Positions 14,601 to 61,684 are shown, numbered from the whole stretch's first letter. The stretch is 63,796 bases of DNA, filler included, from Thraustochytrium aureum (GCA_012862495.1; 5 parts of 4 records of this genome joined end to end with filler, not necessarily neighbours in it); one strand, 5' to 3'. The notes: generated from the sequence alone by a model not told the origin. Translations and numbers: made by a program.

Positions 14601-17254
14601 CTATCTCGGAAGTGCTGCACACGCCAGGAGCAGAGTCGGGCGCGAAGGGCGCGAAAAAACGCAAGCGCGCAAAAGCCACCGTCAGAGGCTTTTCGCTCAC
14701 CCCAGCCCTCGTTGAACGTGGGTTTACGCAGGAAGGGCCGCAAGTTGGAACGCGAACTGCGCGAAGAGTCGCGGACGGCTCGTTCGACCGCGGCACGATT
14801 GTCGCCTACTCTGCGACTGCCGCGCAGGGCGGCCTCTGGCACGTCAAGTTTGACGACGACGGCGACGCGGTCGACTTTAGCGCAGAGGACATAGAACAGG
14901 GCGCCAAGGTTTACGCCGAGTACACCATCAGCAAGAAGCGTGGCAAGAAGAAGGACAAGAAGAAGCGCCGCAAGAGCAAGGGCAAAACGCGTGGCGACGA
15001 CGATGGCGCCGACGACGACCAGCAGCCAAGTGGGACCCCTGCGGATGACCCATCTGCCTCCCTGAATGGCGGCGAGGATTTACAAACCGCCGCTGCGGCG
15101 GAGGAGCACGGCGAGGAGTCTGGCAACGGGGCCGAGGACAGCAACAGGAAGAAGAAGAAGAAATTGAAGAAGAAGAAGAAGAAGAAGCGGTCAAGCAAAG
15201 ACAAGGACTCTGACGAGCCGGACGACGCCCAGGGCGAGGCGAGCGATGAAGAGGTCGCAAGCAAGCCTGACATGGAGCGTGCGGGCAAGGACTCTGCAGG
15301 CGGCGCTGACACCCAGGAGAACGGTGAAGCGGCCGAAAGCGCCGCTAGCGCGCCCACTGGGGCTGATGCGGACGACCAAGCCGTCCAAGTACCCTCGGTC
15401 CCAGAGGGAGTGGACCTGCTGCGCTTGGACCAGTTTCCCGAGTACGCGTTCGTGGGCGGGATTATCACAAAGTACTTTGCAGAAGCAGGGTGCGTCGAAG
15501 GCGTGGTGACCGAGTTTGACGACGAGACGGGCGAGTTCACCGTGAGCTACGCGGAGCGCAACATCGAGGAGCGCATGAAGCGCGAAGAGTTGGAAGCTCT
15601 CGAGCGCAGGTCGGCCCTCCTCAAGGTCGGGAGCGACCGTGATGGGTACACGGACGAAGAAAAGGAGGTGGAGCGCCTTGAGAGCCGCGACGCGCAGCAA
15701 CAACGGTGCTACCGACGCGTTGAGGTGAAGGTAGAGGCTGGCGGCGCGGGCGGTTTGGAGGAGGACGTGGACGACGACGCGCCCCTCGGGCCGGTGATTA
15801 ACAGTGCCGAGGTCACGGGCGACCTCCTCGCGCCGCCGGTGGTCGAAAAGTACAAGGACATTGCGCTTCTGCGTCGGCTCGTGGTCGCGCTCGGTACGCA
15901 GCGGTACGAAGACATCCCGATCGAGCTTCGCGCTGCCATGCTCCGGCTCTTGTGCGAGCAAGTCGCCGAGAGCGGCACGATGCGCGAGTTGATCGAGCGG
16001 AAGATGCTCATCACGATTAAGACTCGCCAAAAATGGCGCGACCTGCCCCCGGTGGTCAAGCGCGAGGAGAGCGCCTCCGAAAAGGAGGAGGAGGAGGAAG
16101 ACCCAGTCTTGGACCGGCTCGCTGGCGAGGGAGTTGCTGAGCAAAAGGAGCTGGAGCGCAAACTCCGCCAGTTCAAGTCGAAGCGCGAGGGCGCGCTGAG
16201 CAAGAGCCTGCTTCGCGCAATCGAGCGGGTCGAGCGCGACCTCGACAAGCAAAAACGGAAGAAGGAGACGAGGGACGACGCGCGGCGCTGGAAGGCCGAG
16301 CTCGAGTTTAAGCTGCAGACTGTGAGCACGCGGCCCAGGATGCTGGGCATGGACCGGTACTTTAATCGGTACATGCTCTTTCCTGGCGACGGCAGNAAGC
16401 TGTTTGTCTACATCGGCGAGGAAGCTGTCCGGCGCGGCGCCGCCACGCCCGAAGAGAGCGGCTGGCGGGTGATCATGGGCCGCAAGCAGCTCAACACGTT
16501 CCTCGCAAGCCTCAACCCTGCTGGTGCCCGGGAGCGCGCCTTGCTGCATGCCATCCAGACCCGAGCCAGCTTGTTTGTGCGCGGCGAGAAGAGCGCCGGG
16601 CTCTGGCGCGCGCTTGAGCAGGGCAAGGGCCGGGCCGGCGACACCGTGACGGGCGAGGAGATGATGACGCTGATTGGCAAGCGGCTCTGCGAAGCGCGTG
16701 AATCGGGAGCCGCGACCGCCTCGCAGACCAAGCCCCGGCGGTTTTACGCCGAGTCGCGAGCAGGAATCCTGATTGGGGCCGCGGCTGTGGCCCGGCATGT
16801 TCGCGCCGCGGAGGAGGCTTCGCCGGAGCCGATGCTTCGAGGCTCGTACACGGAGCGCACGCTCGTGGATGTCAAGGTGTTTTTGCTCAATTTGGAGTTT
16901 TGCGTGTTCCTCACGCGACTCGACGAGCCCTTGACGAGCTGGATGTGGGACTTGCGCAGGGGCTGGATACGCCTGGTGACGAGCGCAACAGACTGGCGCG
17001 ACCTTCGGCAGGCGTGCTGTTTCCTGGAGGTCGTTTTGCAGGAGGTGTCGGTGCCCATGGAGAACTGGTACGCCAATCTGTACGGGGACGCTGGTTACGC
17101 GCTTCGCACGCGGACCTGCTCTAGTCTCGCTGCTCGCGTCTCTGCGCTTGACATGGCGGTCAACCACGAGGAGCTGTCGCGGCAGGCGCTAATGCGCTCG
17201 ACGAGCCGACGAAAGCCGACGGTGTCGCGCTCCCGCAAAAAGCGCAAGCGATGA
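8694..17254 (+). CDS. Large MBD9/BAZ-like chromatin reader: bromodomain - MBD - FYRN/FYRC (with RAMA insert) - coiled coil - DDT - bromodomain - 2x Tudor-like - WHIM1 - WSD; 5' end in gap; frameshifts at ~9833 and ~11458
   Basis: Joins ORFs 8306-10090, 9841-11478 and 11441-17254. Bromodomain end 'FYADLKLVFANCVSFSG'. MBD 'WKVEIIRRLKGATKGSLDSYFLTPG/KRLRTRKDVAAYLG'. FYRN 'ILEIGRVV...FCTRKYIYPLGF...YRCEV'. FYRC 'GHSPTAAW' plus 'LFGL...VEALPG'. DDT 'LLEIWDFLSKFG...TWQEIMR'. Bromodomain 'IFCEPVD...DYLSVVKEPMDLSTI...NCKAYN'. WHIM1 'YEDIPIELRAAMLRLLCEQV'. WSD 'LGMDRYFNRY...LNPAGARERAL'. Confidence 0.85.
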
Positions 17255-26598: not shown

Positions 26599-27319
26599 TG
26601 CGGATGGGTGGATGGATGCCAGCGCGCAGAGACCTCGACTCCACTCGTGCGGCCGCGTTTTCTTTGCGTGATTGCTCGCCGAGCGCTGCGATGCGAGCGC
26701 GAAGGACCTCCGAGTCGTGCTGGTGCGCACATCCGAGTTGTTTGGCTTGCCAAGTTGCCATGCATCGTGGCCATGCATGGTGATCAATCAATCAATCACG
26801 TGATCATGTGATTGTTGCCTGTCTTGTAGCGCCGAGTTGGTGATCGCGCGGGTTGGCGGCCGTTTACGCGGCGGCCGCAGGGGTTGTACTCTACTCATCC
26901 CGCGGTGGTGGAGGAGTTGGTCGGGTCACGTTCTTGCTTGGGTAGAAAGAAGGTCGGGTCCGGGCGATGGCGTGAAAGAGCGGCCGCCTGGTTTCGTGAG
27001 TCGCCACGGCTCGACGTCGTCCACTCTCGTCGTCGGCCAGTTGTGAGGAGGTCGGCCAACGCCTCTGAGGCTGGCTTGGGAAACAGCACCTGCCATAGTC
27101 GGCTATCGCGCGGGCGCACGCGTCAAGAGCACCACCTTTTTGACTCGGAACGCCGGAATGCGAGCCTGAGGATGATGATCTTCAAGTCGACGCAGTTCAC
27201 AAGGAGCTGTCTGGCGAAGCCGAGCAGGCAGACCCCAATCGACACCACGACCGCGCAACGAGCGCGCCGCAGGCAGCAGACTCGAGTCCGAAAGGGAAAG
27301 GATTGAAAAGGAGCACAAG

Positions 27320-28503
27320 ATGTGCAAGGTCGATGGGACAAACCGGGCGAGCTCGGCTCAAGCCCAGGCAGAGCAGGAAAAGCTGCCCACCATCGGCGAG
27401 CTGCGCAAGGCTGTGCCCGCGCACTGTTTCGAAAAGTCGACGTTGAAGAGCCTGTTCTTCGTGGCTCGTGACCTGGCGTTTTGCAGCGCCATCGGGTACG
27501 CGGCCTGGGAGTACATCCCCGTCGAGTGGTCAATCAAGGCCATCGCCCTGTGGACCCTGTACGCCATAGTGCAGGGCACCGTGGCGACCGGGGTCTGGGT
27601 TCTGGGCCACGAAGGCGGACACGGAGGGATCTCGAGCTACTCTATTGTCAACGATACTGTCGGGTACGTGCTGCACTCGATCCTGCTCGTGCCGTACTTT
27701 TCCTGGCAGGACAGCCACAGGCGCCACCACGCGCGGTGCAACCACCTCCTGGACGGGGAGTCGCACAACCCGGACCTCAAGCGCAAGGTTTACAAGATGT
27801 ACGAAAAGATCCTCGACACGGTGGGCGAGGACGCCTTTGTGATCATGCAGATCGTCCTTCACCTTGTCTTAGGGTGGCCCATGTACCTGCTGATGCACGC
27901 GACCGGGTCTCGCCGCAGCCCCGTGACTGGGCAAAAGTACACCAAAAAGCCCAATCACTTCAACTGGGGTGCGAGCAACGAGCAGTACCCGGCCAAGTTG
28001 CGCTTCAAGATTTTTCTGTCCTCGCTTGGCGTGATCGCGACGCTCGCAGGGATCGCCGTGCTGGCCAACAAGCTCGGCGCCGCCAAGGTCTCGCTCATGT
28101 ACTTTGGCCCCTACCTCGTGGTGAATGCCTGGCTCGTGGGATACACCTGGCTCCAGCACACCGACCAGGACGCCCCGCACTATGGCGAGGACGAGTGGAC
28201 CTGGATCAAGGGCGCCATGACGACGATCGACCGCCCCTACCCCTGGATTGTGGACGAGCTCCACCACCACATCGGCACGACGCACGTTTGCCACCACCTG
28301 TTTTCCGACATGCCGCACTACAAGGCCCAGGAAGCCACCGAGGCGCTCAAGCCGGTGCTCGGCAAGCACTACCGCTTCGACCCGACCCCGCTGGCGCAGG
28401 CCATGTGGAACACCGCTCGCGACTGCCACTACGTCGAGGGCCTCGACGGAGTGCAGTACCCGCAGTCAATCATCGCCGAGAAGCGTGCGGCCAAAAGCTC
28501 TAG
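27320..28503 (+). CDS. FAD2: Delta-12 (omega-6) fatty acid desaturase, FAD2-type
   Basis: Three His boxes HEGGH, HRRHH and HVCHH. Also 'LVPYFSW', 'GWPMYL', 'NAWLVGYTWLQHT', 'GAMTTIDRPY', 'MPHYKAQEATEALKPVLG'. The true end is probably ...AAKKL* at TAG 28501-28503, with one A missing in 'gccaaaagctctag'. Confidence 0.96.
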
Positions 28504-28828
28504 AGCTCTGGCTCAAGGGACACCGTGCCGAAGGCTGCGATGTTTGTGAGTTAGCGGGGTCCTGCGCTGCGGTGCGCCGGGGCGGGGCGGGCATTTCCAC
28601 CTCGGCCTCGTCGCATTCCAATTTGCTGGACCTCAACCTGAACGTTTTGTCAATCAAGATCAAAAAAACCATCATCATTATTTGCTCAAACTTCGGCAGC
28701 AAGCCCGCTCGGCCCACGGTGGCGATAGCCCAGCATCCACTTGGAAGTGCCAAGCACCTCATGAGTTCCCAGCTGCGCGAGCCGGCTCGCACATTGCAAG
28801 CTCAACGGACAGTCCCGGGCTTCAAGGA

Positions 28829-39982: not shown

Positions 39983-42900
39983 TCAAGCCGAACGGCGCTG
40001 CAAAGAGTCGCGCAGGCGTCGGAAGAGCGCTGCTGGAAGAGCTGCGACCTCCGCAGCGAGAGCCACCGCGAACACGGCCAGGGTATGCAGCAGCGTGCGC
40101 ATGCCGACGTACGGCGCGTTTGAGGGCTTGAGCTTGTACTCGCACCCCTTGCGGAGCATGAGGATGCCCGCGTGCAGGTGGATGTAGAGCACGACGCTAA
40201 ACGTCATAAGGGGCTGGAACACGAGGCAAGCAAGCTGCGACTCGACGCGCTCAAGCACCAGGCTCGCCGAAAAGGTTGGCGCACCGTCGTCAGCGACATC
40301 CTCGGGCGCTCTCGCGGTTGGCTGCGCGCCGGTAACGTGCTCCCACTCGGTCATCGTTGCCGCTTCGGCCGCGGCTTTGGGGCGGCGCGTGCTGAGCGCT
40401 TTGACGGCGAGGCGGCCACCCACCGGGCGCGTAAGCCTCCACTCGTAGTTGAAGAATACGTCGAAGAAAGGGCTCACGTGAAAGTCCTTCTTCCACTTGG
40501 AGGCGTACCAGTCCAGGCCGTCCGCCGCGAGCTCGCGCTTTGCGTCGTCGAAGAACGGCAGCACGTAGAGCCGCTTCTCAAGCCAGGGCGTGTTGCTCAC
40601 CTCGAGAAGGACGGCCTCGAGGCGCGTCCTGTCCGGCGAGAGGCAGTAGAACACGCTGACTGGGTTGAAGACGAACCCGAAGCAGCGCAGGTTGGTGAGC
40701 ACCTGCACCGGTCCGCTGGGCTCGCGGCCGCAGTCCTCCCGAATAGCCTTGCGAACGGCGTCATCGAGGGGCTCGGATGGGTCCCCAAAGTGGTCTTCTC
40801 GCCGCCAGGAAAAGGGCGCCCAGTCGGACGGTTTGGCGGAGACCAACCAGCTGTCGCTGAACNNNNNNNNNNNNNNNNNNNNNNNNNNNNNNNNNNNNNN
40901 NNNNNNNNNNNNNNNNNNNNNNNNNNNNNNNNNNNNNNNNNNNNNNNNNNNNNNNNNNNNNNNNNNNNNNNNNNNNNNNNNNNNNNNNNNNNNNNNNNNN
41001 NNNNNNNNNNNNNNNNNNNNNNNNNNNNNNNNNNNNNNNNNNNNNNNNNNNNNNNNNNNNNNNNNNNNNNNNNNNNNNNNNNNNNNNNNNNNNNNNNNNN
41101 NNNNNNNNNNNNNNNNNNNNNNNNNNNNNNNNNNNNNNNNNNNNNNNNNNNNNNACGGTTTGGCGGAGACCAACCAGCTGTCGCTGAACGCTGTGCCTGC
41201 GCGGACCTCGGCCAAGTCTATGAGCGCCATCCAGACGGGATAGCTGAATGCATGCGAAGACGGCGAGGCACCCTCCACCTTGTTGCGGCGGTGGGCCACC
41301 GTGCCGCGGTACAGGCGCGAGTCTGCGAGCAAAGTCAGCGCGGAAGTGAGCGGCAAGCGCTACGCCAAGTGCCAAAGCCAGTAGCAAAAAAAAACAGAGA
41401 GCTGAGGTGGGCAAATGATTCACGTACGCAATGGGGCCGCCAGCGGGTTCGCGCTGGCCGCAGCGGGGCTCGCTGTGCCGCCCATGGTTTCGATGAGCTC
41501 CGCCTTGGTGCGCGCCTTGCTCAGGAGCTGGTCGGTGTTGACGCGGTTTTCACGCTCCTCCTTGTACCTCACCGCGGTGCTGATCAGAAGCGCCGTCTCG
41601 CGCACCGCGATCGCGCAAATGGGCAGAAGGACGCGCCACGGCGCCTTGAGGATGACCGGATAGAGGAGAATCGGGACAGGGATCCACCGGATCACCACCA
41701 GAGCCAGCAGGTCGAGCTTCCAGAGCAGCGCGTAGCCAGTGTGCCCCAATGTGTAGCCACGGAGGCTGAGCATGGTGCGGAGGCTGCGGAAACAAGCATG
41801 GAGCTCGCTCACGCCGTGCACGATGGCGAGGCCGAGCGCTGTTGTGGCCGTCTTGGTGTCCCCCGGCGAAGGACAGCACGCTCAGAGTCAGGAGGGCGAG
41901 CGAGTGCAACCCGTTCAGGAGCGACCTGTGCAGCAGAAAGCGGGACACCGAGGCCCACGCAAGCACCGCAACGACAAAGTGCATCGGGGAGCGGATGTAG
42001 TACTTTGTTGCGAGGTCCGGCAGCGACGCCGAGGCAGCTGCGGCTTCGCTCTGAACTCGCGCAGAGCCCTCAGCAGAGCAGGCGCCCGTTTCGCTGCCCC
42101 ACTGGCAAAAGTGCACGTCGTCGCCCCCGGCGACCGAGGCCGACGCGTTGATTCCGGACTCGGCACCAATCGCACCTCCCACCGAGGCATCGGCCTGGTC
42201 CCAGGGAGTCGCATTCGCAAGTTGAGTGGTGTACAGCACGTCATGGAACGCGATGAGGCCCAACACGACCGCGCACACGAACACGGAGACGCAGAGCTTG
42301 ACGAAAACGAGCTGCGCTCGTCGGCGTGCACGCGTCGAGACCGTCGCGGTGGCGGGGTCGAGTTTCGGCAGGTATGTGGCGATGAGCGTTGCGAAGATCA
42401 CCGCGGCGCACAGGATTGTAGCGATGTGCCTGATCACGGTGTGCAGGGTGAGCGACATGACGGCGACCCACGACATGACGGCTACAATCGCCGGAAGCAC
42501 GACGGTGTCAAACGACTGCAGCCACAGCGGGACGTCCTCCTCGAGGCCGGCCCCCTCTCCAGAGGCGACAGAGGCAGCAGCGGCAGCAGCCCGCCTGGCG
42601 CCCTTGGCCTGAAGGTCGGCTGTGTCGCGCAGCTTGCTGACGAAAGTGAGGTGGTAGTCGAGGATGTACTTTTGGCGGAAGCCCGACTCGCAGTAGGCAA
42701 AGTACATCTCGAAGACGCGAAACCACGACTCGGGGTAGCCGAGGGCGAGAATCTTCTCCTTGTTGGCCAGGAAGCGCTCGCGCCACATGCGCAGCGTGAT
42801 GGCGTAGTCGGGACCGATGTCGACGACCTCCGCGAGGTCGAGCGCAGTCTCCTCTGTGGCCCATTTGACAGCGCTGAGGGAGGGCAGGTGGCCGCCAGGG

Positions 42901-43193
42901 AAGATGCATTCGCGGATAAAGTCCGAGGTGGAGCAGTATTCGTCGTACCGGTCATCGTGAATCGAGATCACCTGGATCACGGCCCGGCCCCCGGGCTTGA
43001 GCATCCGCTCGACCGTCTCAAAGTACTCTGGGAGGTGCTTGTGGCCGACGGCTTCAAGCATCTCGATGGAAACCACCTTGTCGAAGCAGCCAGGCGCGAG
43101 GTCGTGCTCAAAGACGATCTGGTCCTTGAGCTCGTTGTACTGCTCGATGCCCATCTTGCGATAGTCGCAGATGATGAGGTTGACTTTGTCCTC
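39983..43193 (-). CDS. Fusion gene: cyclopropane-fatty-acyl-phospholipid-synthase-like SAM methyltransferase - multi-TM (TLC-like) domain - DUF1365; 5' truncated by linker; intron 41323-41427; frameshift ~41860
   Basis: CMAS motifs 'DYR', 'FDKVVSIEMLEAVG', 'DFIRECIFPGGHLPSL', 'IGPDYAITLRMWRERF', 'MYFAYCESGF'. A TM region follows. DUF1365 motifs 'LYRGTVAHRR...HAFSYPV', 'LTNLRCFGFVFNPVSVFYC', 'EVSNTPWLE', 'KDFHVSPF'. A GT-AG intron joins them in frame. Confidence 0.85.
41323..41427 (-). other. Spliceosomal intron (105 bp) joining the TM region to DUF1365
   Basis: Donor GTACGT, U-rich body, branch-like GCTGAC, acceptor ...TTGCTCGCAG. Splicing gives in-frame ...A-P-L-H-S-R-L-Y-R-G. Confidence 0.8.
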
Positions 43194-48530: not shown

Positions 48531-48905
48531 CGGCTCAAACGCATTTTGATTGTTGAACAAACGCCTGCCAACCTCGTGTCGAGCGCTCTGCGCACACCAA
48601 GCAGCTCGTGGCTGTGTCCTCAGTGAACGACGAGGGGCCGGCGGGGCGACGAGGTCCCTTCGCGCAGCCGCATGGCCAGCCAGCGCCTCGGAGCAGGCAG
48701 GCCCTCAAGGGGTCAGTCGTGCCAGAACGAGAAAAGGAGACTACTCTGTGCCAACAGATAGTCCCCTTTTTCGTGGCGCAGAAACGACGCCGAGTTGAAG
48801 CAGGACACTCACTACCTACTCCACGGAGCAGGCGCAGCGCAGAGTCTCAGGTCGGCAGCTGGCGTGAGCGATTTTGGTTGACCGAACACGTTGCGAGCAG
48901 AAGCG

Positions 48906-49646
48906 ATGGCGCAAGACGGGCAACACCGCACGGTGTTCTGGGTCCAGGAAGCGAGCGAGAAGGATGGGCTTCTGCGCACGATTGATCAGCGCAAGCTCCC
49001 CGGCAAGCTCGTGTACAAGGACTCGGCGACCGTCGCTGAGGCCGCCCAGTGCATCGCCGATATGGTCGTGCGAGGCGCGCCGGCGATCGGCGCGATGGGC
49101 GGCTTCGCGATGGCGCTCGCCGCGCAAAAGGTGCGCGGCCTCCCGCTCAGCGAGCAGATCCTCGCGCTCAAGCAGGCGAAAGCCGACCTGGACGCGGCGC
49201 GGCCCACAGCGGTCAACCTGAGCTGGGCCACCGAGCGCCTCGTGCAGCTGGCCTGCACCGTGACCGACCAGGAGAAGGTGTTTCCGGCCGTCCTCAAGGA
49301 GGCCCAGGCCCTGGCGGACCAGGACGTTGCCATCAACAAGGCGATGGGCCGCCACGGCGCCGAGGTGGTGCCGCACGGCGCCAACATTCTGCACCATTGC
49401 AACACCGGCGCGCTCGCCACGGTCGACTGGGGCACGGCCATCGGGGTCATCTACGAGTGCCACCGGCAAGGCAAGGGCGTGCACGTGTGGGTGGACGAGA
49501 CGCGGCCGCGGCTCCAGGGCGCGCGCCTCAGCGCCTGGGAGCTCATGCGCGAAGGCGTGCCCATGCACCTCATCGCCGACAACGCCGCGGGCTTGCTCAT
49601 GCTGAACGGCAAGGTTGACATTGTGCTGTACGGCGCGGACCGCGTG

Positions 49647-49678
<32 letters not shown>

Positions 49679-50009
49679 TACCTACAAGCTCTCTGTGGTG
49701 GCTCGCGAGAACGGGATCCCGGTCTACGCCGTGGTGCCCACCTCGACGATCGACCTCAACGTGGCGACGGGCAGCGAGATCCCCATCGAGGAGCGCGGCG
49801 AGGAGGAGATCACCTCGATGGCCGGCGGGGCGCGCATCGCGCCAGAGGGCGTGCAGGTGTACAATCCGGCCTTTGACATCACGCCGCACAGGTATGTGAC
49901 CGGGATCATTACCGAGCAAGGGATCTGCTACCCGCCCTTTTCGCAGAGCCTGCGGGCCGCCAAGGAGCGCGCCGAGGCCCAAATCAAGGCCGCGCAGGCG
50001 AGCGACTAA
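48906..50009 (+). CDS. MRI1: Methylthioribose-1-phosphate isomerase (methionine salvage)
   Basis: 'IDQRKLP', '[10 protein letters not shown]', '[11 protein letters not shown]', '[13 protein letters not shown]', '[12 protein letters not shown]', '[18 protein letters not shown]', 'IPIEER', 'NPAFDITP'. Confidence 0.97.
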
Positions 50010-52366: not shown

Positions 52367-55300
52367 TCAATTGTCGAAAGGACCCCAAAGATGGGTCGCG
52401 CCGCGGCCCTCAAGCAGCTCGCGCACATGCGAGTGGATTGGCCCTCCCGCGCCCAACGCGAGCGCTTCGGCCACTGGGGTGACGTCTGCCCCGGACGCCC
52501 TCCAGCACAGCAACGCAAGCATGAGCGACCGGTACCCGTCCTGGTGAAACGTCAGCCCGCCAGGCCAAAGCGTGCCCCTCTGCAGCACCGCGATTTGCTT
52601 GGCGACCTCGCTCGGCGCGCATGCAGGCCCGCGGTGATTCGCGTTCGCCGCGAGGAAGGCCTCGATAGCGGCNNNNNNNNNNNNNNNNNNNNNNNNNNNN
52701 NNNNNNNNNNNNNNNNNNNNNNNNNNNNNNNNNNNNNNNNNNNNNNNNNNNNNNNNNNNNNNNNNNNNNNNNNNNNNNNNNNNNNNNNNNNNNNNNNNNN
52801 NNNNNNNNNNNNNNNNNNNNNNNNNNNNNNNNNNNNNNNNNNNNNNNNNNNNNNNNNNNNNNNNNNNNNNNNNNNNNNNNNNNNNNNNNNNNNNNNNNNN
52901 NNNNNNNNNNNNNNNNNNNNNNNNNNNNNNNNNNNNNNNNNNNNNNNNNNNNNNNNNNNNNNNNNNNNNNNNNNNNNNNNNNNNNNNNNNNNNNNNNNNN
53001 NNNNNNNNNNNNNNNNNNNNNNNNNNNNNNNNNNNNNNNNNNNNNNNNNNNNNNNNNNNNNNNNNNNNNNNNNNNNNNNNNNNNNNNNNNNNNNNNNNNN
53101 NNNNTGCGGCCCTCCGCTCCAGGGCCACCGAGCTCGGCGAGCAATCGGTTGACAAGCCTGACGGCCCCTAAGCGTACGTCGTCAACCTCATCTTGGGCAA
53201 GCCGGAGCAGCGCAAGCCAGAGACCCACCCGCTCTGCCGCGGTGGCTGCGCTCCCAGCGCCAAGCAAGATGCCGTCCAGCGCGAGGCCGTCGAGGGCAGC
53301 GAGACGGAGCTCTGCAGACCGCTCGGGTAGCGTCGCGTCCAGCACGCGGGCCGATACCTCGGGTACAAGCTTGTCGCTCGGTCGTGTCGCGGCCTGCAGG
53401 GCCATGAGCGCGCGCAGCGCTGGCGCCTTGGCGAGTCCGCTCCGCGCCGCGTCGTATCGCTCGCAGACTCGAACCGCAAGCGCATCCGCATCTGGCGGGA
53501 GCGTTTCGGACTGCAGGACCAAAGCTAGCAGTGCAAGGCGCTCCTGCTCGTCGACCGGGTACTCGTCATCGCAGGCGAGCGTGGCACGCGCCAGCGCCTG
53601 AGAAACCAACGAGCAAAGGCGCCCCCTCGCCTCAAGCTCGTCCTTGCAGTGCTCCCGCAGGCTCCGCATCGCCCAGACGCGATCGCGGGCCCTCCCCTGT
53701 GCCAAGGCCAACGCGGCCAGGGAGTATTCGGAGCCCTCGAGCGCGCATGCAAGCCCAATGACGCGTTCACAGTCCTCGAGCTTGGCAGCTGCATCTCGAA
53801 CAAGAAGGTGCAGCGAGTCGTCCAGGCGCACATCCGGGGCGTGAGCGCGCCGGAGGCGCAGCCAAACCTCCACAACGTCGCAGCATGTGTTCGCCAGCAG
53901 AGCGCAGCTTGGCCGCGTCGCGGCAGCAGCCTCCACGCCGACGCCCAGCGCGCCGAGCAAGGCAGCCTGCAGCTCGACGACAACGTCCGCCACTTGGCCC
54001 GACTCGGCGTCCGCGCCAAGCTCCTCTACAGCCAGGACGATCAACCGGCGGTCGAACACGGCCTTGACGAGCTGCTGCACGGCAAGCAGCGCGCCGTGCA
54101 GCGCATTGTAGCTGAGCGGGCGGGCCGGTGCTGGGAAATCCGCGCCAACAGGCTACGAAGCGAGCCCAAGAGCTGCGCGTTTGGCACGAGCGCCCCAAGA
54201 GCGCGCGCGGCCGTCGTCCGCGTCATTGCCTCCGGCTGGCGGCAGCAGGAGAGCAACAAAGGCACAAACGGCGCGACGTCTTCGTCCGCAGCAGCCCAAG
54301 ATGCCCGCTCGCCTCGCTTTGCTGGGCTCCAAGAAACGCCCTGGCGCTACCCAGCAGAAACTGCGGCTGGAGGCGGGACAAGAGCAGCAACCACGGGTAC
54401 AGACGCGGGTCCCGATGCGCACCAGGTCGGCTCGCCTCTTCGAGGCCCCGCAAGAGCACGCCGCGCACTGCAGCAAAGCGCCGAAAGAAAAACGAGGCGG
54501 CCACACGGTTCCCAACCGAAGAGTCGTTCCCTTGGTGGTGCCCTGCCATCAGGCGCTTGATTGCCTTGGCGAAGATCATCATCGACGAGTTGCGCTGCTG
54601 CCAGTGCGCCGACGCGAAACCCTCCATGGAGAGAATGAGGATTTCGCTCATCGCAGCCCCTTCAAGGTCATTTGCAAGGGTGGCGTCCTCCACGATGGCC
54701 TTGAGAATGTTGAGCGAGTGGACCCGCGTCCCGAGAGAGACCTGCTCGCCAGTTGCGAGCTCGATCAGCCGATGCGTCATTTGCGCGAGGAGGACTGACT
54801 TGAAGGTTCGCGGCTCCGATCGAGCCAGGGCCAAGAACGAACCGGCAAACCCGGCCGACTTGCGCAGCACAAAGCCCTGCGTCCCTGCTTCTAGCCGCTC
54901 CAAAAGCTGGTCCAGCCAGCTACGCGGCAGCTCGAGCAGGTGGCGCACTGTTCGAGGCGCGCCGCCAACAACCGCGGGCTCGACCGGCCCGGCGCTTGAC
55001 GTCTTTACACGCCCGCGTTTGAGTCCCAAGAGCCGCGAGCAAACGCCTTGGAACGCCATGGTGGCGTATCCGACCGCGCCAACATGCTTGAGGGAGCCCA
55101 ACACTTGCAGCAGCCAGTTGCCGATCCGCGTGACGTCCTCGAACGAGAGGACCCAGGCATCGCCGTCGCCGCGAAGCGCCTCGTCGGCCCCAGGGGCGAC
55201 TTGTAGAGGCGAGGACTCAACTAGGGCCTGCAGGAGCTCGCTCCCATCGCGAACAAGGAGCCAGCTGCTCATCACCACCTTGCGATTGGACGCCCCGCCG

Positions 55301-58300
55301 TCCGCCGACTCCTCCAGGCCCTGCACGGGGCCAGCCACGGCCAAGTGGTGGCCGCGCAACCCGTCGCTAGCGACCTCGTCGCTGTCCTGCGCGTCGCTGT
55401 CGCCTGCCACCACCGCCTTGGCCATGTCGAGCACGGTCAGCACTGTCCGCAGCAGGTCGGCGGCCAGCGGGCGCCAGCGCTTGGAAAAGCGCGGCGTATC
55501 CTGCCAGCAGAGCCGGATCGCGCGCAGCACGCCAAACACGCACCCGTTCGCGTCGCCAAGGACCGAGAACCGCGCGTCTGGCGTCTGGCTTGCCTCACTG
55601 CTCGCAACGTTCTCGACCGAACTGGCAGGGATGGCGCGCAGGCCGGCCAGCTCCAGTGAGGCGACACGGGCTTTGAGCGTCCCCACCAGCTGCCACATAA
55701 AGTGGAGCGCAGCCGTCTCGCGGTCGAGATTGCGCCCGATCGCGTGGTCCGCCGCTGCGGCCGCCTCGTTGGCCTCGAGCGGCGCGTTTGGGACGCCAAC
55801 TTGGTCCGGGAACAAAAACATGTTGGGCTCCATGCATCGGCGCTGCAGGCGCGGGTCTTCCAGATAGTCGACTCGGATGCCGGCGTCGCGCAGGAGCCGC
55901 GTGCCTTCGCACACCACAAACTTGGACGGTTCGCGAACGCCAACGACGACCCGGGCAACCTTTGCGGCGATGCATCGGGACGTGCACGGCCGGTTCCCGG
56001 AAAGCCGCACGCTGCACGGCTCCATCGTCGTGTAGATCGTGGTTCCTTCGGCGGCCCCGCACGCGGCGTCGTCGAGCGAGCCCTGTTCTTCAGCTGGCTT
56101 GCCAGAATGATCCGCTTCGATTTTCATGAAAGCCGTCTCTTCTGCATGGGTGTTGCCCGGCAGTTCGCGGCTGTAGCCTCGCGCGAGCCACTGGTCCGCA
56201 TCTCGCCCCACCACGATGGCGCCGACGCAGTACGCCTTTTCGGCTCGCTCGCACTTGTCAGCCTCGTCGCAGGCTAGGTGCATCACCGCCTGGTCGACCT
56301 GGCTGCGCAGTGCGAGCGCGGCGGCATGTGCATGCGCAAACTCTTCTGCGGCACCCCACGGAGACGCCCACGCCGGCGCGGCGCTTGACGGCAAATCGAC
56401 AGCCCACCCCAGCTCGCGCACGTACTTGCGGTATACGAGGCGCACCATTGCGGCGCCGGCGTCCGAGTCGCGCATGCGGGAGCCGGACAGGAGCACATCA
56501 GCCCACTGCAACCAACGCGCCACGGCAGCATGGTTGCAAATGCCCGGATACGGAGCTTCAAGAAGCGACAGCGCCCCAAAGGCGAGCTCTTGCGTTCGGT
56601 CGTACGCGTTCATGAGCATGTTGATGAGGGCCATGATCGAGTCGGCTGGCCGCGGCCGGCCAGGGCCGGTCGGCGCATGCCCCACAAGCGGGGCGGCAAG
56701 NNNNNNNNNNNNNNNNNNNNNNNNNNNNNNNNNNNNNNNNNNNNNNNNNNNNNNNNNNNNNNNNNNNNNNNNNNNNNNNNNNNNNNNNNNNNNNNNNNNN
56801 NNNNNNNNNNNNNNNNNNNNNNNNNNNNNNNNNNNNNNNNNNNNNNNNNNNNNNNNNNNNNNNNNNNNNNNNNNNNNNNNNNNNNNNNNNNNNNNNNNNN
56901 NNNNNNNNNNNNNNNNNNNNNNNNNNNNNNNNNNNNNNNNNNNNNNNNNNNNNNNNNNNNNNNNNNNNNNNNNNNNNNNNNNNNNNNNNNNNNNNNNNNN
57001 NNNNNNNNNNNNNNNNNNNNNNNNNNNNNNNNNNNNNNNNNNNNNNNNNNNNNNNNNNNNNNNNNNNNNNNNNNNNNNNNNNNNNNNNNNNNNNNNNNNN
57101 NNNNNNNNNNNNNNNNNNNNNNNNNNNNNNNNNNNNNNNNNNNNNNNNNNNNNNNNNNNNNNNNNNNNNNNNNNNNNNNNNNNNNNNNNNNNNNNNNNNN
57201 NNNNNNNNNNNNNNNNNNNNNNNNNNNNNNNNNNNNNNNNNNNNNNNNNNNNNNNNNNNNNNNNNNNNNNNNNNNNNNNNNNNNNNNNNNNNNNNNNNNN
57301 NNNNNNNNNNNNNNNNNNNNNNNNNNNNNNNNNNNNNNNNNNNNNNNNNNNNNNNNNNNNNNNNNNNNNNNNNNNNNNNNNNNNNNNNNNNNNNNNNNNN
57401 NNNNNNNNNNNNNNNNNNNNNNNNNNNNNNNNNNNNNNNNNNNNNNNNNNNNNNNNNNNNNNNNNNNNNNNNNNNCACGCCCTCACGCTTGACGATCTGC
57501 CCCAAGAGCGGCAGCGCTGCCTTGAGGTTGGTGCGCACGCTCTTCGGGTCGTGTTCGCGAAGCTCGCGCATAAGTCGCGCAGCGAGGCGCTGGTGCGCTG
57601 CTCTGACGGCCTCGAGCTCCTCGCCAAACCCGTCGAGCGAGACCGCTGTGGGATCTTGCGCGAGGTCGACGCGCACAAAGTCAACAACACCCAAGGCGCT
57701 CTTCAAAAGCGGCTCGAGGTGGTATCGTGCCTTGCGCTCGCCGTGGCTCCAGTTGGCGAGGACAAAGTCCACCAGCTCGAGGCACGTGGCGCGTGCTGAG
57801 GCGCGCCAATATTCCCAGACGAGGGATCGCATCGAAGGGTCCTGCAGGCCCCCTCTGACGTGCCTGCACCACATGCCCATGCCTTCTTGGCAGGCTGTCT
57901 GCAGAGCCTCCTCGAAGACGTTGTCTTCAGCGATCCGTCGGAGTTGCTCTATGAACAGTTGAGCTACGAATCGGCCATCTGGGGCCTTGGAAAACAGGTC
58001 TACAGCCGGAAGCGAGCCAATCGCCTGTTGCAAGAGCAGCGCCTGAACGTCTGCCTTCAGGTCGTCGCGAGACGCGCAAGCGAGAAACCCTGTCGCCGGC
58101 GCGTTGTTGTCCACCAAGTGCTGGATCGCGCTGATGATGGGCTCCCCGCGGACCGAGCACACGACGCTGGCCATGCGAACTAGCGCAACTGATGCGTGCG
58201 TGCGAAGGGGTTTGAAGGTGTGCGCCTTGACGACATCTGGCTCGCGGAGCAAGGGCAGCAGCGCTTGGTCGCGCATCGTGGCCAGCTCGCTTTCCAGCAT

Positions 58301-59139
58301 GTCCGGGTCCATGCCGGGCTGCCCTGGAGACCGCGGGTCGGCCAGCATTGATTCTAGCACGTTGAGGAGAAAGCGCGTGGGCGCCTCGATTTGGTCTGCG
58401 ACTTCGGATTGGTCCGAAGCAGACCCGCCAGTGGCCAGTGCTTGGACAGGTGCCTGTAGCAAGGGGGATGAGCATCGCAGCGCAGCAGCGCAGCGCTTCC
58501 TCGGGGGGGAATTGCGCCAGCAGGGTTGCCCTCGTGGACTCGCATTCGATGAGGTGCTGCAGAGCGCAGCCTAGGTGCTCGAGAAAGCCGTGGAACTCGC
58601 GCGGCAGGAGAGCGGCGCGGTACTGTTCGATTCGCCTTGCCGGCGCGAGCGCAGCAGTGTCCAGCAGAGCCCCGAGGGCCTGGGCGCTGACGGATTTCGG
58701 CGAGGCTGCCGCGCAGACGTCCATCACGTTGACGCCGAGGCGGCGCATCTTGTTGCTGCTCGGCGCTGCGGCGGCGACGAGCCCGAGGCGCGCAGCTTCC
58801 GAAACGGCTGCGCAAGCGGCGTCGCCATGCTCGCCGCAGCGTTCGCAGCGCTCTTGGCCGCACGCCAGGCCCCCTTCTTAATTGCGTCTTTCACGCCCCA
58901 AGCGCTTTGGCGCGTTCGTTCTCACCTTTTGCGGCCGCCACTTGGCTCGCCGCCCTCGCCACGGCCTGCACGCCGCTCCCCGCCAGAGCATCAACCAGCC
59001 CGCCATACACCGCGTAAAAGTCTTTCAGCGCCTCCGATGCCGTCCCGTCCGCCTCGGCGTCGCCCGCGAACGCGTCAAGCTTCCTTGCGCCCTGCGAAGC
59101 CGCACCGCGCCCCTTGCGGCCAAGCGCCCTTCGCGGCAT
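52367..59139 (-). CDS. THADA: THADA/Trm732-like armadillo protein (DUF2428) with an in-frame inserted Rib2-like cytidine/DRAP deaminase domain; two N gaps and several frameshifts; start and end approximate
   Basis: THADA motifs 'LLSGSRMRDSDAGA...L', 'VMSSWLLVRDGSELL', 'IGNWLLQVLGSLKHVGA', 'LRKSAGF', 'RVHSLNILKAI', 'W..RNSSMMIF', 'FFFRRF', 'LYPWLLLLSRL', 'RTTAARAL', 'N.LHG.LL'. Insert motifs 'GYSRELPGNTHAE' and 'YTTMEPCSVRLSGNRPC'. Confidence 0.88.
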
Positions 59140-60123: not shown

Positions 60124-60725
60124 TCAGCAAATGATGCAGCACTGGTTGTGCTGCTTGGCCGTGTGGTAAAACGCCTTGGACTGCATCGTCAGGTCGTCCG
60201 ACTGCTCGACCAGCTTGTCCAGCTTGACCTGGCGCTCGAGCACCGAGTCGATCGTCTTGTGCATGACCTCCATGGTTGAATCAAGGTCCTGCTGAATCTT
60301 GGTGATCTTGTCGGCCTTGGCCGGGTCCTGGAACTCGACGATGGCCCTGTCTAGCGGCTCGAACGGGAGCTTGGTGTCCTGGCCGACGGAGGGCCACTGC
60401 TGCGCGTAGGCGCCGTGGAACTCGTCGAGGAGCTTGGACATGATCGTGAACGCGACGCGCTCCGGGTACTCGGTGTCGGCCACGACGGCCGCTCCGAGGC
60501 CGTCGCTGCGAAGGTAGGTGTGCACGTTGTTCCCCTCGTGCACCACGGACTGCCGCTTGCCGCGCGGCGTGCGCTTGATCAGCGTGCGGCTGATAAACTT
60601 TACAAACTGGCCCGCAGTAGACCGCTCGAAGACCCAAAGCTGGACAGGTCGGTCGCCGAGGCCAGGAAAACCGGCTCACTCGTGTCTTCGTTCCACCGCA
60701 AAATGGACATACCAGTGATCTTCAT
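60124..60725 (-). CDS. YKT6: Ykt6 R-SNARE (longin + SNARE motif + lipidation tail); frameshift ~60633
   Basis: 'DLSSFG(F)FER', 'RQSV', 'DTEYPERVAF', 'FQDPAKADKITKIQQDLDST..VMHKTIDSVLER..KLDKLVEQSDDL..QSKAFY..AK..NQCCIIC'. Confidence 0.96.
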
Positions 60726-61684
60726 CTTGCCGCAGCCTTGCACCGGCCGGCCAGCCAGCCCCACACCAGGTCCGCGCTCCCCCCTCTCGCTCCTCCCTCG
60801 GCCCGACGCCTCGAGCGCGCGGTCAGAGCGTGCGAGCGAAGGCGACGCCACGCAGGCAGGCAGGCAGGCACCAAACGGACGCCTCGCCCAAATCCCGCGA
60901 CTCGCCCCGCGTCTCGCCCCCAAACAAACAAGCAAGCACGCGCGCGCGCCAAGTAAGCAGCCGCCGCGCCCCCAGCCGCCCTCGCGCAGCTNNNNNNNNN
61001 NNNNNNNNNNNNNNNNNNNNNNNNNNNNNNNNNNNNNNNNNNNNNNNNNNNNNNNNNNNNNNNNNNNNNNNNNNNNNNNNNNNNNNNNNNNNNNNNNNNN
61101 NNNNNNNNNNNNNNNNNNNNNNNNNNNNNNNNNNNNNNNNNNNNNNNNNNNNNNNNNNNNNNNNNNNNNNNNNNNNNNNNNNNNNNNNNNNNNNNNNNNN
61201 NNNNNNNNNNNNNNNNNNNNNNNNNNNNNNNNNNNNNNNNNNNNNNNNNNNNNNNNNNNNNNNNNNNNNNNNNNNNNNNNNNNNNNNNNNNNNNNNNNNN
61301 NNNNNNNNNNNNNNNNNNNNNNNNNNNNNNNNNNNNNNNNNNNNNNNNNNNNNNNNNNNNNNNNNNNNNNNNNNNNNNNNNNNNNNNNNNNNNNNNNNNN
61401 NNNNNNNNNNNNNNNNNNNNNNNNNNNNNNNNNNNNNNNNNNNNNNNNNNNNNNNNNNNNNNNNNNNNNNNNNNNNNNNNNNNNNNNNNNNNNNNNNNNN
61501 NNNNNNNNNNNNNNNNNNNNNNNNNNNNNNNNNNNNNNNNNNNNNNNNNNNNNNNNNNNNNNNNNNNNNNNNNNNNNNNNNNNNNNNNNNNNNNNNNNNN
61601 NNNNNNNNNNNNNNNNNNNNNNNNNNNNNNNNNNNNNNNNNNNNNNNNNNNNNNNNNNNNNNNNNNNNNNNNNNNNNNNNNNNN

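What the first reader, a model, noticed from the sequence alone, without database searches (positions are those of the whole stretch)
55810..56300. Intact Rib2-type zinc deaminase inserted inside THADA/Trm732, the tRNA position-32 methylation cofactor
Seen in sequence: within one stop-free, gap-free frame (54223-56700, minus strand), THADA sequence ('SRMRDSDAGAAMVRLVYRKYV') is interrupted by a ~160-aa domain, then resumes into DUF2428 ('VMSSWLLVRDGSELL', 'LRKSAGF', 'RVHSLNIL'). The insert is MHLAC...AYCVGAIVV...GYSRELPGNTHAEE...TIYTTMEPCSVRLSGNRPC...VVVGVREP..FV...G..LL..AGI.V. The Zn ligands and catalytic Glu (HAE at 56140-56148; PC...C) are intact. Established knowledge: Trm732/THADA guides Trm7/FTSJ1 to 2'-O-methylate tRNA nucleotide 32. 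The motifs GYSRELPGNTHAE and YTTMEPCS.RLSGN.PC are characteristic of the deaminase domain of fungal Rib2, which is itself fused to the tRNA pseudouridine-32 synthase (Pus8). C32-to-U editing coupled to methylation is known in trypanosomes, carried out by ADAT2/3 with Trm140. Inference: the same deaminase family is independently fused to a second position-32 tRNA factor. This suggests either an undescribed coupled C32 deamination/2'-O-methylation machine, or a recurrent link between riboflavin-pathway deamination and anticodon-loop modification.
Basis: partly seen in the sequence, partly recalled or inferred. Interest (0 to 1): 0.92.

Follow-up and report, generated by a model that had tools for sequence, protein, structure and literature searches.

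The report
Riboflavin enzyme inserted in tRNA-methylation scaffold
In a group of marine protists, an intact enzyme domain of the type that likely makes vitamin B2 sits in the middle of the tRNA-methylation helper protein THADA, and the same domain is joined to three other tRNA-modifying proteins in other lineages, which may point to an unrecognised link between vitamin B2 synthesis and tRNA maturation.

Summary
The insertion is real. A 162-aa zinc deaminase (window 55813-56298, minus strand) lies in frame inside THADA/Trm732. Contigs of two public runs bridge both junctions. The same insert sits at the same site in 8 full-length THADAs (Mucochytrium, Hondaea, 6 unnamed) and in an MMETSP transcript ORF. 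All 13 fused rows form one branch of a THADA tree.

The domain is a fungal-type Rib2 DARIPP deaminase. All 12 substrate-contact and Zn positions of A. oryzae Rib2 match yeast Rib2 in 12 of 12 fused THADAs, and the top fold match is AoRib2 (Z 20.4; TadA 17.2). It most likely does step 3 of riboflavin synthesis while THADA keeps its Trm7-helper role, as in yeast Pus8-Rib2.

C32 editing is unlikely: the pocket is Rib2-type and the insert is inferred to lie on the far edge from the anticodon contacts.

A further finding: the same deaminase is also fused to TRM6 (10 environmental clusters) and to Trm4/NSUN2 (2 records). With Pus8 and THADA that makes four independent tRNA-modifier partners. Non-tRNA partners (Cax4, METTL21-like and others) also occur. 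No paper on the THADA, TRM6 or Trm4 fusions was found.

The parts
52367..59139 (-). Whole THADA/Trm732 gene with the deaminase insert; broken in the window by N gaps (52673-53104, 56701-57475) and by likely single-base assembly errors. Start codon at 59139 and end at 52367 are inferred.
   Evidence: tblastn of P0003/P0004 covers 58450-57476, 56700-54313, 54301-54131, 54125-53124 and 52666-52412; ORF ends; N runs
54226..56700 (-). Stop-free 825-aa stretch (P0001) holding THADA helices, the insert and DUF2428
56404..56475 (-). THADA helix before the insert (aa 76-99); aa R77 aligns to human Tyr843, which stacks on tRNA A36
   Evidence: profile alignment to 8Y2O, paper, AF2 helix 76-96
56299..56403 (-). 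N-side linker (aa 100-134); the model has a long helix (aa 119-147) running into the first helix of the deaminase
55813..56298 (-). Rib2-type zinc deaminase domain (aa 135-296)
56140..56172 (-). S177, N183 and H185-A186-E187: pyrimidine and phosphate contacts, Zn ligand, catalytic Glu (AoRib2 T53, N59, H61, A62, E63)
55984..56022 (-). E227, C229, R232, L233, S234, C239: Zn ligands and phosphate/ribitol contacts (AoRib2 E100, C102, R105, L106, S107, C112; R232 = yeast R518)
55930..55932 (-). E257, ribitol O2' contact (AoRib2 E136 = yeast E545)
55405..55722 (-). THADA HEAT helices resuming after the insert (aa 327-432)
54598..55464 (-). DUF2428 with THADA motif 1 (K538-H539 = human R1105-H1106), W480 (= W1054) and motif 2
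54355..54594 (-). TPR_Trm732_C (partial, before the assembly frameshift)

Best explanation
A Rib2-type zinc deaminase is inserted in frame into a loop of THADA in thraustochytrid-like protists and their relatives, and the result is likely a bifunctional protein: the insert would deaminate the riboflavin precursor DARIPP, while THADA would still guide Trm7 to methylate tRNA position 32. SHOWN: the in-frame insert, one shared site in all fused THADAs, an intact Rib2 pocket, intact THADA tRNA-binding motifs, one transcript ORF in a relative, and further fusions of the same domain to TRM6, Trm4, Pus8 and non-tRNA partners. INFERRED: (1) Zn bound by H185, C229 and C239 and the catalytic E187 hydrolyse the 2-amino group of DARIPP to give ARIPP, with N183, R232 and S234 holding the phosphate and E257 the ribitol. 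(2) The insertion happened once, in an ancestor of the clade. (3) The domain sits on the solenoid edge opposite the anticodon contacts, so it does not reach C32. (4) The two chemistries are independent, as in yeast Pus8-Rib2. The small monomeric enzyme gains stability and growth-linked expression from a housekeeping host, and tRNA-modifying proteins are a favoured class of host.
For: Fingerprint: 12 of 12 fused THADAs have the same 12 residues as 14 of 14 yeast Pus8-Rib2 proteins, including S. cerevisiae R518 and E545, whose mutation lowers DARIPP deaminase activity (PMC8256712). The insert is 42% identical to the S. cerevisiae Rib2 domain. Fold: AoRib2 Z 20.4, rmsd 2.3 over 158 aa; RibG 19.6 (tied within 1); TadA 17.2; ADAT2/3 14-15.6; CDAT8 11.3; Foldseek top hit is the AoRib2-DARIPP complex. 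NCBIfam hits only RibD models. Four relatives are fused to the RibD_C reductase domain of the same pathway. The insert is more conserved (42-73% identity to P0001) than the THADA flanks (17-52% in full-length rows). THADA H1106 and R/K1105 are kept in 12 of 12 rows and W1054 in 11 of 12. Thraustochytrium RT2316-16 grows in riboflavin-free defined medium with 14% less biomass (PMC12734794). [quoted passage not shown] A yeast Pus8 catalytic mutant is viable although RIB2 is essential (PMC13142501).
Against: No activity was measured. No genome is held, so I could not check that this organism has Rib1, Rib7, Rib3, Rib4 and Rib5, or that it lacks a separate Rib2; the osmotroph tables are not per species. 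The fingerprint is partly circular, since the word-based searches favour proteins with these motifs. Four independent tRNA-modifier partners are more than chance would give under a small base rate (P 2e-5 for 4 of 9 at 2%; 0.016 for 4 of 20 at 5%; 0.13 at 10%; base rates assumed, test made after seeing the data), and independent chemistry explains this only weakly. The AF2 model has pTM 0.87, which suggests a docked rather than loose domain. The deaminase tree needs 3 changes for the THADA label, though one clade is not rejected (p-AU 0.45).
Confidence: 0.7

Rival explanations
1. The domain is a DARIPP deaminase but is functionally coupled to tRNA maturation. Either tRNA binding to the host regulates it, tying flavin supply to tRNA-modification flux, or it has a second job on a tRNA-borne or tRNA-derived ring-opened guanine that resembles DARIPP.
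For: Four separate fusions to tRNA modifiers: Pus8, THADA, TRM6 (10 of 10 clusters run from the TRM6 C-terminal motif into the deaminase) and Trm4 (P0349, plus L052 where Trm4's last exon continues in frame into the deaminase). These hosts carry the three largest groups among 226 long deaminase proteins: 134, 21 and 16 (counts include near-copies and are not events). The insert was kept across the whole clade sampled. Whether the two Pus8 activities influence each other is called open in PMC5699540. Nm32 promotes wybutosine formation (PMC10275265); that Tyw1 and Dus enzymes use flavin is recalled.
Against: Many stand-alone copies exist (47). Conserved non-tRNA partners occur too: Cax4/PAP2 (13 proteins), METTL21-like (3), a nucleoside-kinase-like domain (2), SET (2) and GNAT-like tails. 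The pocket shows no partner-specific change. The four hosts act at different tRNA sites.
Confidence: 0.18
2. The domain deaminates tRNA C32 (or Cm32) to U as part of a THADA-Trm7 editing and methylation machine.
For: It is a catalytically intact CDA-fold enzyme tethered to a position-32 factor. A precedent exists in T. brucei, where TRM140 with ADAT2/3 makes m3U32 (PMC10275265).
Against: The pocket is Rib2-type with terminal-phosphate and ribitol contacts intact. TadA/ADAT models are not hit and rank lower by fold. In 8Y2O, C32 is buried in the FTSJ1 active site 3.3 A from SAH. The insert follows the C-terminal end of the 21-residue helix whose start (Tyr843) touches the anticodon, so it is about 30 A away (inferred). 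The TRM6 and Trm4 hosts are not position-32 factors.
Confidence: 0.04
3. The domain deaminates another free nucleotide or base (salvage or damage clean-up) and is unrelated to riboflavin.
For: CDA-fold enzymes change substrate easily, and Z scores to dCMP, guanosine and cytosine deaminases are 16.1-16.3. The pathway was not verified in this genome.
Against: The residue set is identical to biochemically tested Rib2 enzymes, and relatives are fused to the riboflavin reductase.
Confidence: 0.05
4. The fusion is an artefact: a misassembly, a nested gene, or an insert that is spliced out.
For: The window is a gappy draft with indel errors. No raw RNA reads were available, and the RNA status of X2, X3 and X6 is a guess.
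Against: Both junctions are bridged in two runs from two studies, with no joint. Eight full-length homologues from five source collections carry the same insert. The MMETSP ORF P0013, marked complete, contains it.
Confidence: 0.02

Closest known systems
S. cerevisiae Rib2/Pus8 (tRNA pseudouridine-32 synthase + DRAP deaminase)
   Same: Same deaminase family (42% identity; same 12 contact residues), fused to a tRNA position-32 factor
   Different: The host is the non-catalytic HEAT scaffold THADA, not an RluA-type enzyme. The domain is inserted mid-protein rather than appended at the C-terminus. Different lineage and a separate deaminase clade.
Aspergillus oryzae Rib2 (7DRY, 7DRZ, 7DS0, 7DS1)
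   Same: Best fold match (Z 20.4, rmsd 2.3, 158 aa); all DARIPP contacts kept, with T53 as S like yeast
   Different: AoRib2 is a stand-alone monomer
Human THADA / yeast Trm732 (8Y2O)
   Same: DUF2428, motifs 1 and 2, W1054 and an aromatic at F799 are kept; top fold match of the 825-aa model
   Different: About 230 extra residues with the deaminase replace the loop at human ~859-885; 78 other THADAs with both flanks lack the insert
T. brucei TRM140-ADAT2/3 C32 editing complex
   Same: A deaminase and a methylation factor working on position 32
   Different: A TadA-family heterodimer with an m3C methyltransferase; the insert here is RibD/Rib2-family
Bacterial RibD/RibG deaminase domain
   Same: Next-best fold (Z 19.6, tied within 1 with Rib2) and the only NCBIfam hits
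   Different: Below the cut-off (57 vs 156 bits); RibG uses D101/N103 for the cyclic ribose, whereas the insert has the Rib2 L106/E136 pair for ribitol

Membership tests
Rib2-type DARIPP deaminase | HxE and PCx8-9C zinc motifs with catalytic Glu | tested here: met
   H185, E187, C229, C239; 12 of 12 fused THADAs
Rib2-type DARIPP deaminase | Phosphate contacts N59, R105, S107 and ribitol contacts L106, E136 (AoRib2 numbering) | tested here: met
   N183, R232, S234, L233, E257; 12 of 12; = yeast R518, E545
Rib2-type DARIPP deaminase | Fold closest to AoRib2 | tested here: met
   Rank 1 (Z 20.4, rmsd 2.3, 158 aligned; RibG 19.6 is within 1)
Rib2-type DARIPP deaminase | Converts DARIPP to ARIPP; rescues rib2 | not testable with these tools
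   needs an assay
Rib2-type DARIPP deaminase | Rest of the reductase-first riboflavin pathway in the same genome | tested here: inconclusive
   No genome; no riboflavin gene among 31 other window ORFs scanned; only indirect papers
THADA/Trm732 | DUF2428 and Trm732 C-terminal repeats; motifs 1 and 2 | tested here: met
THADA/Trm732 | Binds Trm7/FTSJ1 and supports Nm32 | not tested
   No Trm7 sequence from this organism was held; no complex job was sent
TadA/ADAT2-3 tRNA deaminases | Match to the TadA profile and closest fold among TadA/ADAT | tested here: not met
   No TadA hit at E<=1e-3; TadA and ADAT are listed but rank below Rib2 and RibD (Z 17.2, 15.6, 14.5, 14.0)
Bacterial RibD (equivalog) | Deaminase plus reductase in one chain, above the curated cut-off | tested here: not met
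   57 bits vs cut-off 156; no RibD_C domain
AID/APOBEC-like (Pfam name Inv-AAD) | AID/APOBEC fold | tested here: not met
   The Pfam model is hit, but it is also hit by every Rib2 relative scanned; AID/APOBEC chains score Z 4.8-6.7 against 20.4 for Rib2

The most novel reading that the evidence does not exclude
The Rib2 deaminase is a partner of the tRNA-maturation machinery across eukaryotes: captured independently by Pus8, THADA, TRM6 and Trm4 because tRNA-bound hosts regulate riboflavin flux, or because the enzyme also clears a DARIPP-like ring-opened guanine arising in or from tRNA.
Probability: 0.2. Interest if true: 0.88.

Novelty: new variant of a known kind. Interest (0 to 1): 0.66.

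Why it matters
The yeast Pus8-Rib2 fusion has been treated as an oddity joining unrelated activities, and whether they influence each other is called open (PMC5699540). Three more independent fusions to tRNA modifiers turn this into a pattern that can be tested, and thraustochytrids such as Aurantiochytrium are used for gene knockouts (abstract start of PMC10016063). It also gives the likely Rib2 step of riboflavin synthesis in industrial DHA producers and in the clam parasite QPX (Mucochytrium; common name recalled), where it is hidden under a THADA annotation. Finally, it shows that this THADA loop tolerates a whole enzyme.

Tried and rejected
No whole genome is held, so paralogues and pathway genes could not be searched. 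No RNA holder is on record. Laying runs on a second stretch showed uneven depth in X2, X3 and X6 and flat depth in X1, but no splice joint, so RNA status stays a guess and I do not use it as expression evidence. The metagenome scan gave 71 loci; none matched THADA or TRM6, 3 matched Pus8 and 1 matched Trm4. Alignment A3 smeared plain THADAs into the insert columns and was not used for folding. The 179-row deaminase tree was a quick tree with 78 of 175 inner branches open; it cannot name the donor of the insert. Its group table ignores unlabelled rows, so its '1 change' says little. Singleton partners (hexokinase, dynamin, RanBP1, peptidase M3, PhyH, kinase, Rab; 18 singletons) were set aside as probable gene-model merges, except Trm4, which has a second DNA record. 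Three look-ups of earlier findings returned nothing. The atlas search confirmed that P0060's N-terminal part is TRM6 but gave no taxon. The Pfam name Inv-AAD was rejected as a guide to function. No complex prediction was sent. A VIA second look for the 825-aa model was not run.

Full report
OBSERVATION. The minus-strand frame 54226-56700 gives 825 residues without a stop. Pfam places a zinc deaminase at aa 135-281 and THADA's DUF2428 and C-terminal repeats at aa 413-782; my own HMMs set the deaminase at aa 135-296 and THADA sequence before it at aa 20-99. HAE is at 56148-56140 as stated. Contigs of X1 and X2 (two studies) bridge both junctions, and no joint was listed. X1 may be the window's source. 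The stop at 54223 follows a missing base at 54310 that is present in three runs, and homologues align on to about 52412, so the gene probably spans about 59139-52367.

CONSERVATION. A search of long proteins with aa 55-410 gave 10 hits among 7986 scored candidates. Eight are THADAs of 1459-2411 aa with the deaminase inside, two of them named (Mucochytrium quahogii, Hondaea fermentalgiana); two are chytrid gene models without THADA. An MMETSP ORF marked complete in the Mucochytrium cluster holds the insert. The HMMER search listed 150 of 3463 hits. Of the 160 proteins then held, 78 THADAs have both flanks and no insert. Further fused rows were P0102, P0025 and P0166 (partial), and P0019, which begins with the end of a deaminase and which I labelled by hand. 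In a THADA tree built without the insert, the 13 fused rows (window included) form one side of a branch against 79 plain rows (SH-aLRT 85; 0 of 500 shuffles). Named plain rows include Cantina and Ectocarpus. The insertion site is the same in the 10 other fused rows whose alignment I printed with that flank. In a 62-row deaminase tree the 11 inserts need 3 changes, but one clade is not rejected (p-AU 0.45). One ancient insertion is the simplest reading. The search scores both domains, so it favours fused rows. The organism is inferred to be thraustochytrid-like from these homologues.

WHAT THE DOMAIN IS. PMC8256712 (parts 1-3 of 5 read) lists the residues of A. oryzae Rib2 that bind DARIPP. Using the alignment, 12 side-chain or motif positions map onto the insert. 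All 12 are identical in 12 of 12 fused THADAs, 10 of 10 TRM6 fusions and 14 of 14 yeast Pus8-Rib2 proteins (T53 is S in all). They include the S. cerevisiae R518 and E545 positions. The insert is 42-73% identical among fused rows against 17-52% for the flanks of full-length rows. The domain model (pLDDT 91) matches AoRib2 first (Z 20.4, rmsd 2.3, 158 aa), then RibG 19.6, RibD 18.6, TadA 17.2, dCMP deaminase 16.3, ADAT2/3 14.0-15.6, CDAT8 11.3 and AID/APOBEC under 7 (Foldseek order similar). NCBIfam hits RibD models only. A shared fold shows no function; the residue set is the stronger evidence. It is partly circular because word-based searches favour these motifs.

WHERE IT SITS. A profile alignment to 8Y2O (chain numbering minus 28 gives human numbering, checked on motif 2) puts R77 at Tyr843, Y33 at Phe799, W480 at Trp1054 and K538-H539 at Arg1105-His1106, all tRNA contacts in PMC12145424 (parts 1-3 of 8 read). 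The insert replaces the loop at about 859-885. In the 825-aa model (pLDDT 84.6, pTM 0.87) helix 76-96 is followed by a linker, a long helix 119-147 leading into the deaminase, and THADA helices again from 310. The insert thus leaves from the far end of a 21-residue helix whose start touches the anticodon, about 30 A away, while C32 lies inside FTSJ1 3.3 A from SAH. This distance is inferred from helix length; I could not measure it. The fold search of this model ranked 8Y2O first and AoRib2-DARIPP second.

PATHWAY CONTEXT. No genome is held, and none of 31 other window ORFs scanned is a riboflavin gene. Indirect support: a Thraustochytrium strain grew and was subcultured without riboflavin, with 14% less biomass (PMC12734794, passages). 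[quoted passage not shown] Passages of PMC12614181, PMC9734096, PMC11802676 and PMC11279195 gave nothing on thraustochytrid riboflavin genes.

OTHER FUSIONS. The same deaminase is appended to TRM6, the non-catalytic subunit of the tRNA m1A58 methyltransferase, in 10 clusters from environmental data. In all 10 the TRM6 C-terminal motif runs through a linker into the deaminase. It is appended to Trm4/NSUN2 in Choiromyces (P0349) and in contig L052, where the last Trm4 exon continues in frame into the deaminase. Clustering the non-deaminase parts of 226 proteins of 300 aa or more gave 13 groups of two or more and 18 singletons: Pus8 134, TRM6 21, THADA 16, Cax4/PAP2 13, RibD_C 4, an unnamed extension 4, METTL21-like 3, and smaller SET, kinase, GNAT-like and unnamed groups (labels). 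These counts include near-copies and come from the top 120 of 228 and all 87 hits of two word-based searches. Four tRNA modifiers among roughly 9 to 20 partner types gives P from 2e-5 to 0.13, depending on an assumed base rate of 2-10%. The test was made after seeing the data, so it is a lead.

MECHANISM. Most likely (0.7) the protein is bifunctional: a DARIPP deaminase for riboflavin on a working Trm7 scaffold, with independent chemistries as in yeast, where a Pus8 catalytic mutant is viable although RIB2 is essential (PMC13142501, passage). PMC8256712 suggests that domain fusion may stabilise yeast Rib2. Coupling to tRNA maturation is the main rival (0.18). C32 editing (0.04), another small substrate (0.05) and artefact (0.02) are unlikely.

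NOVELTY. Six paper searches (listings and abstract starts only) showed no report of THADA-, TRM6- or Trm4-deaminase fusions. The passages of PMC3239186 that I saw name only the yeast pseudouridine-synthase fusion, PMC5699540 calls Pus8 the first such case and the coupling open, and the THADA structure paper's main text does not mention it. The library lacks most subscription journals, and databases already list both Pfam domains on these proteins. Behm-Ansmant 2004 was not read; it is cited through these papers. PMC10275265 and PMC5889660 were seen as passages. Verdict: a real, conserved and apparently undescribed architecture, a new variant of the Pus8-Rib2 kind, with a recurring tRNA-modifier pattern that deserves a test.

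Noticed in passing
P0060, P0089, P0139, P0278-P0284 (unnamed Logan/ENA/JGI/NCBI records): TRM6 (Gcd10)-Rib2 deaminase fusion in 10 clusters of an unplaced environmental eukaryote lineage
   Followed up: partly
L052:3272-6486 (+) and P0349: Trm4/NSUN2 fused in frame to the Rib2 deaminase in Choiromyces and a close relative; the last exon holds both parts
   Followed up: partly
P0172, P0241, P0314, P0350-P0353 and others: Cax4/PAP2 phosphatase-Rib2 fusion in smut fungi and Malassezia; a candidate for the pathway's dephosphorylation step, untested
   Followed up: no
P0144, P0368, P0369; P0177, P0185; P0091, P0094; P0187 and relatives: Other recurrent partners: METTL21-like (Schizosaccharomyces), uridine/nucleoside-kinase-like, SET (two chytrids), GNAT-like C-terminal domain (unplaced protists, one MMETSP record)
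   Followed up: partly
P0209, P0228, P0263, P0271: Reductase-first RibD_C + Rib2-type deaminase proteins, probably bacterial; sister to the eukaryotic set
   Followed up: no
P0102 (KAH9260973.1): Labelled Batrachochytrium salamandrivorans, but its THADA groups with fused rows P0009 and P0010 (support 94); possibly a contaminated or mislabelled assembly
   Followed up: partly
window 54310, about 54123, 60631: Single-base omissions in the window relative to three or four runs; they cause false frameshifts in THADA and in the neighbouring longin SNARE gene
   Followed up: yes
window 9769-17251 (+): Large chromatin protein with FYRN, RAMA, bromodomain and WSD domains
   Followed up: no
window 39986-43193 (-): DUF1365 next to a cyclopropane-fatty-acid synthase domain, an arrangement I recall from bacterial operons
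   Followed up: no
window 48882-50006 (+), 60127-60990 (-), 27179-28546 (+): Neighbours: IF-2B-family protein (probably methylthioribose-1-phosphate isomerase, recalled), YKT6-like longin SNARE, fatty-acid desaturase
   Followed up: no
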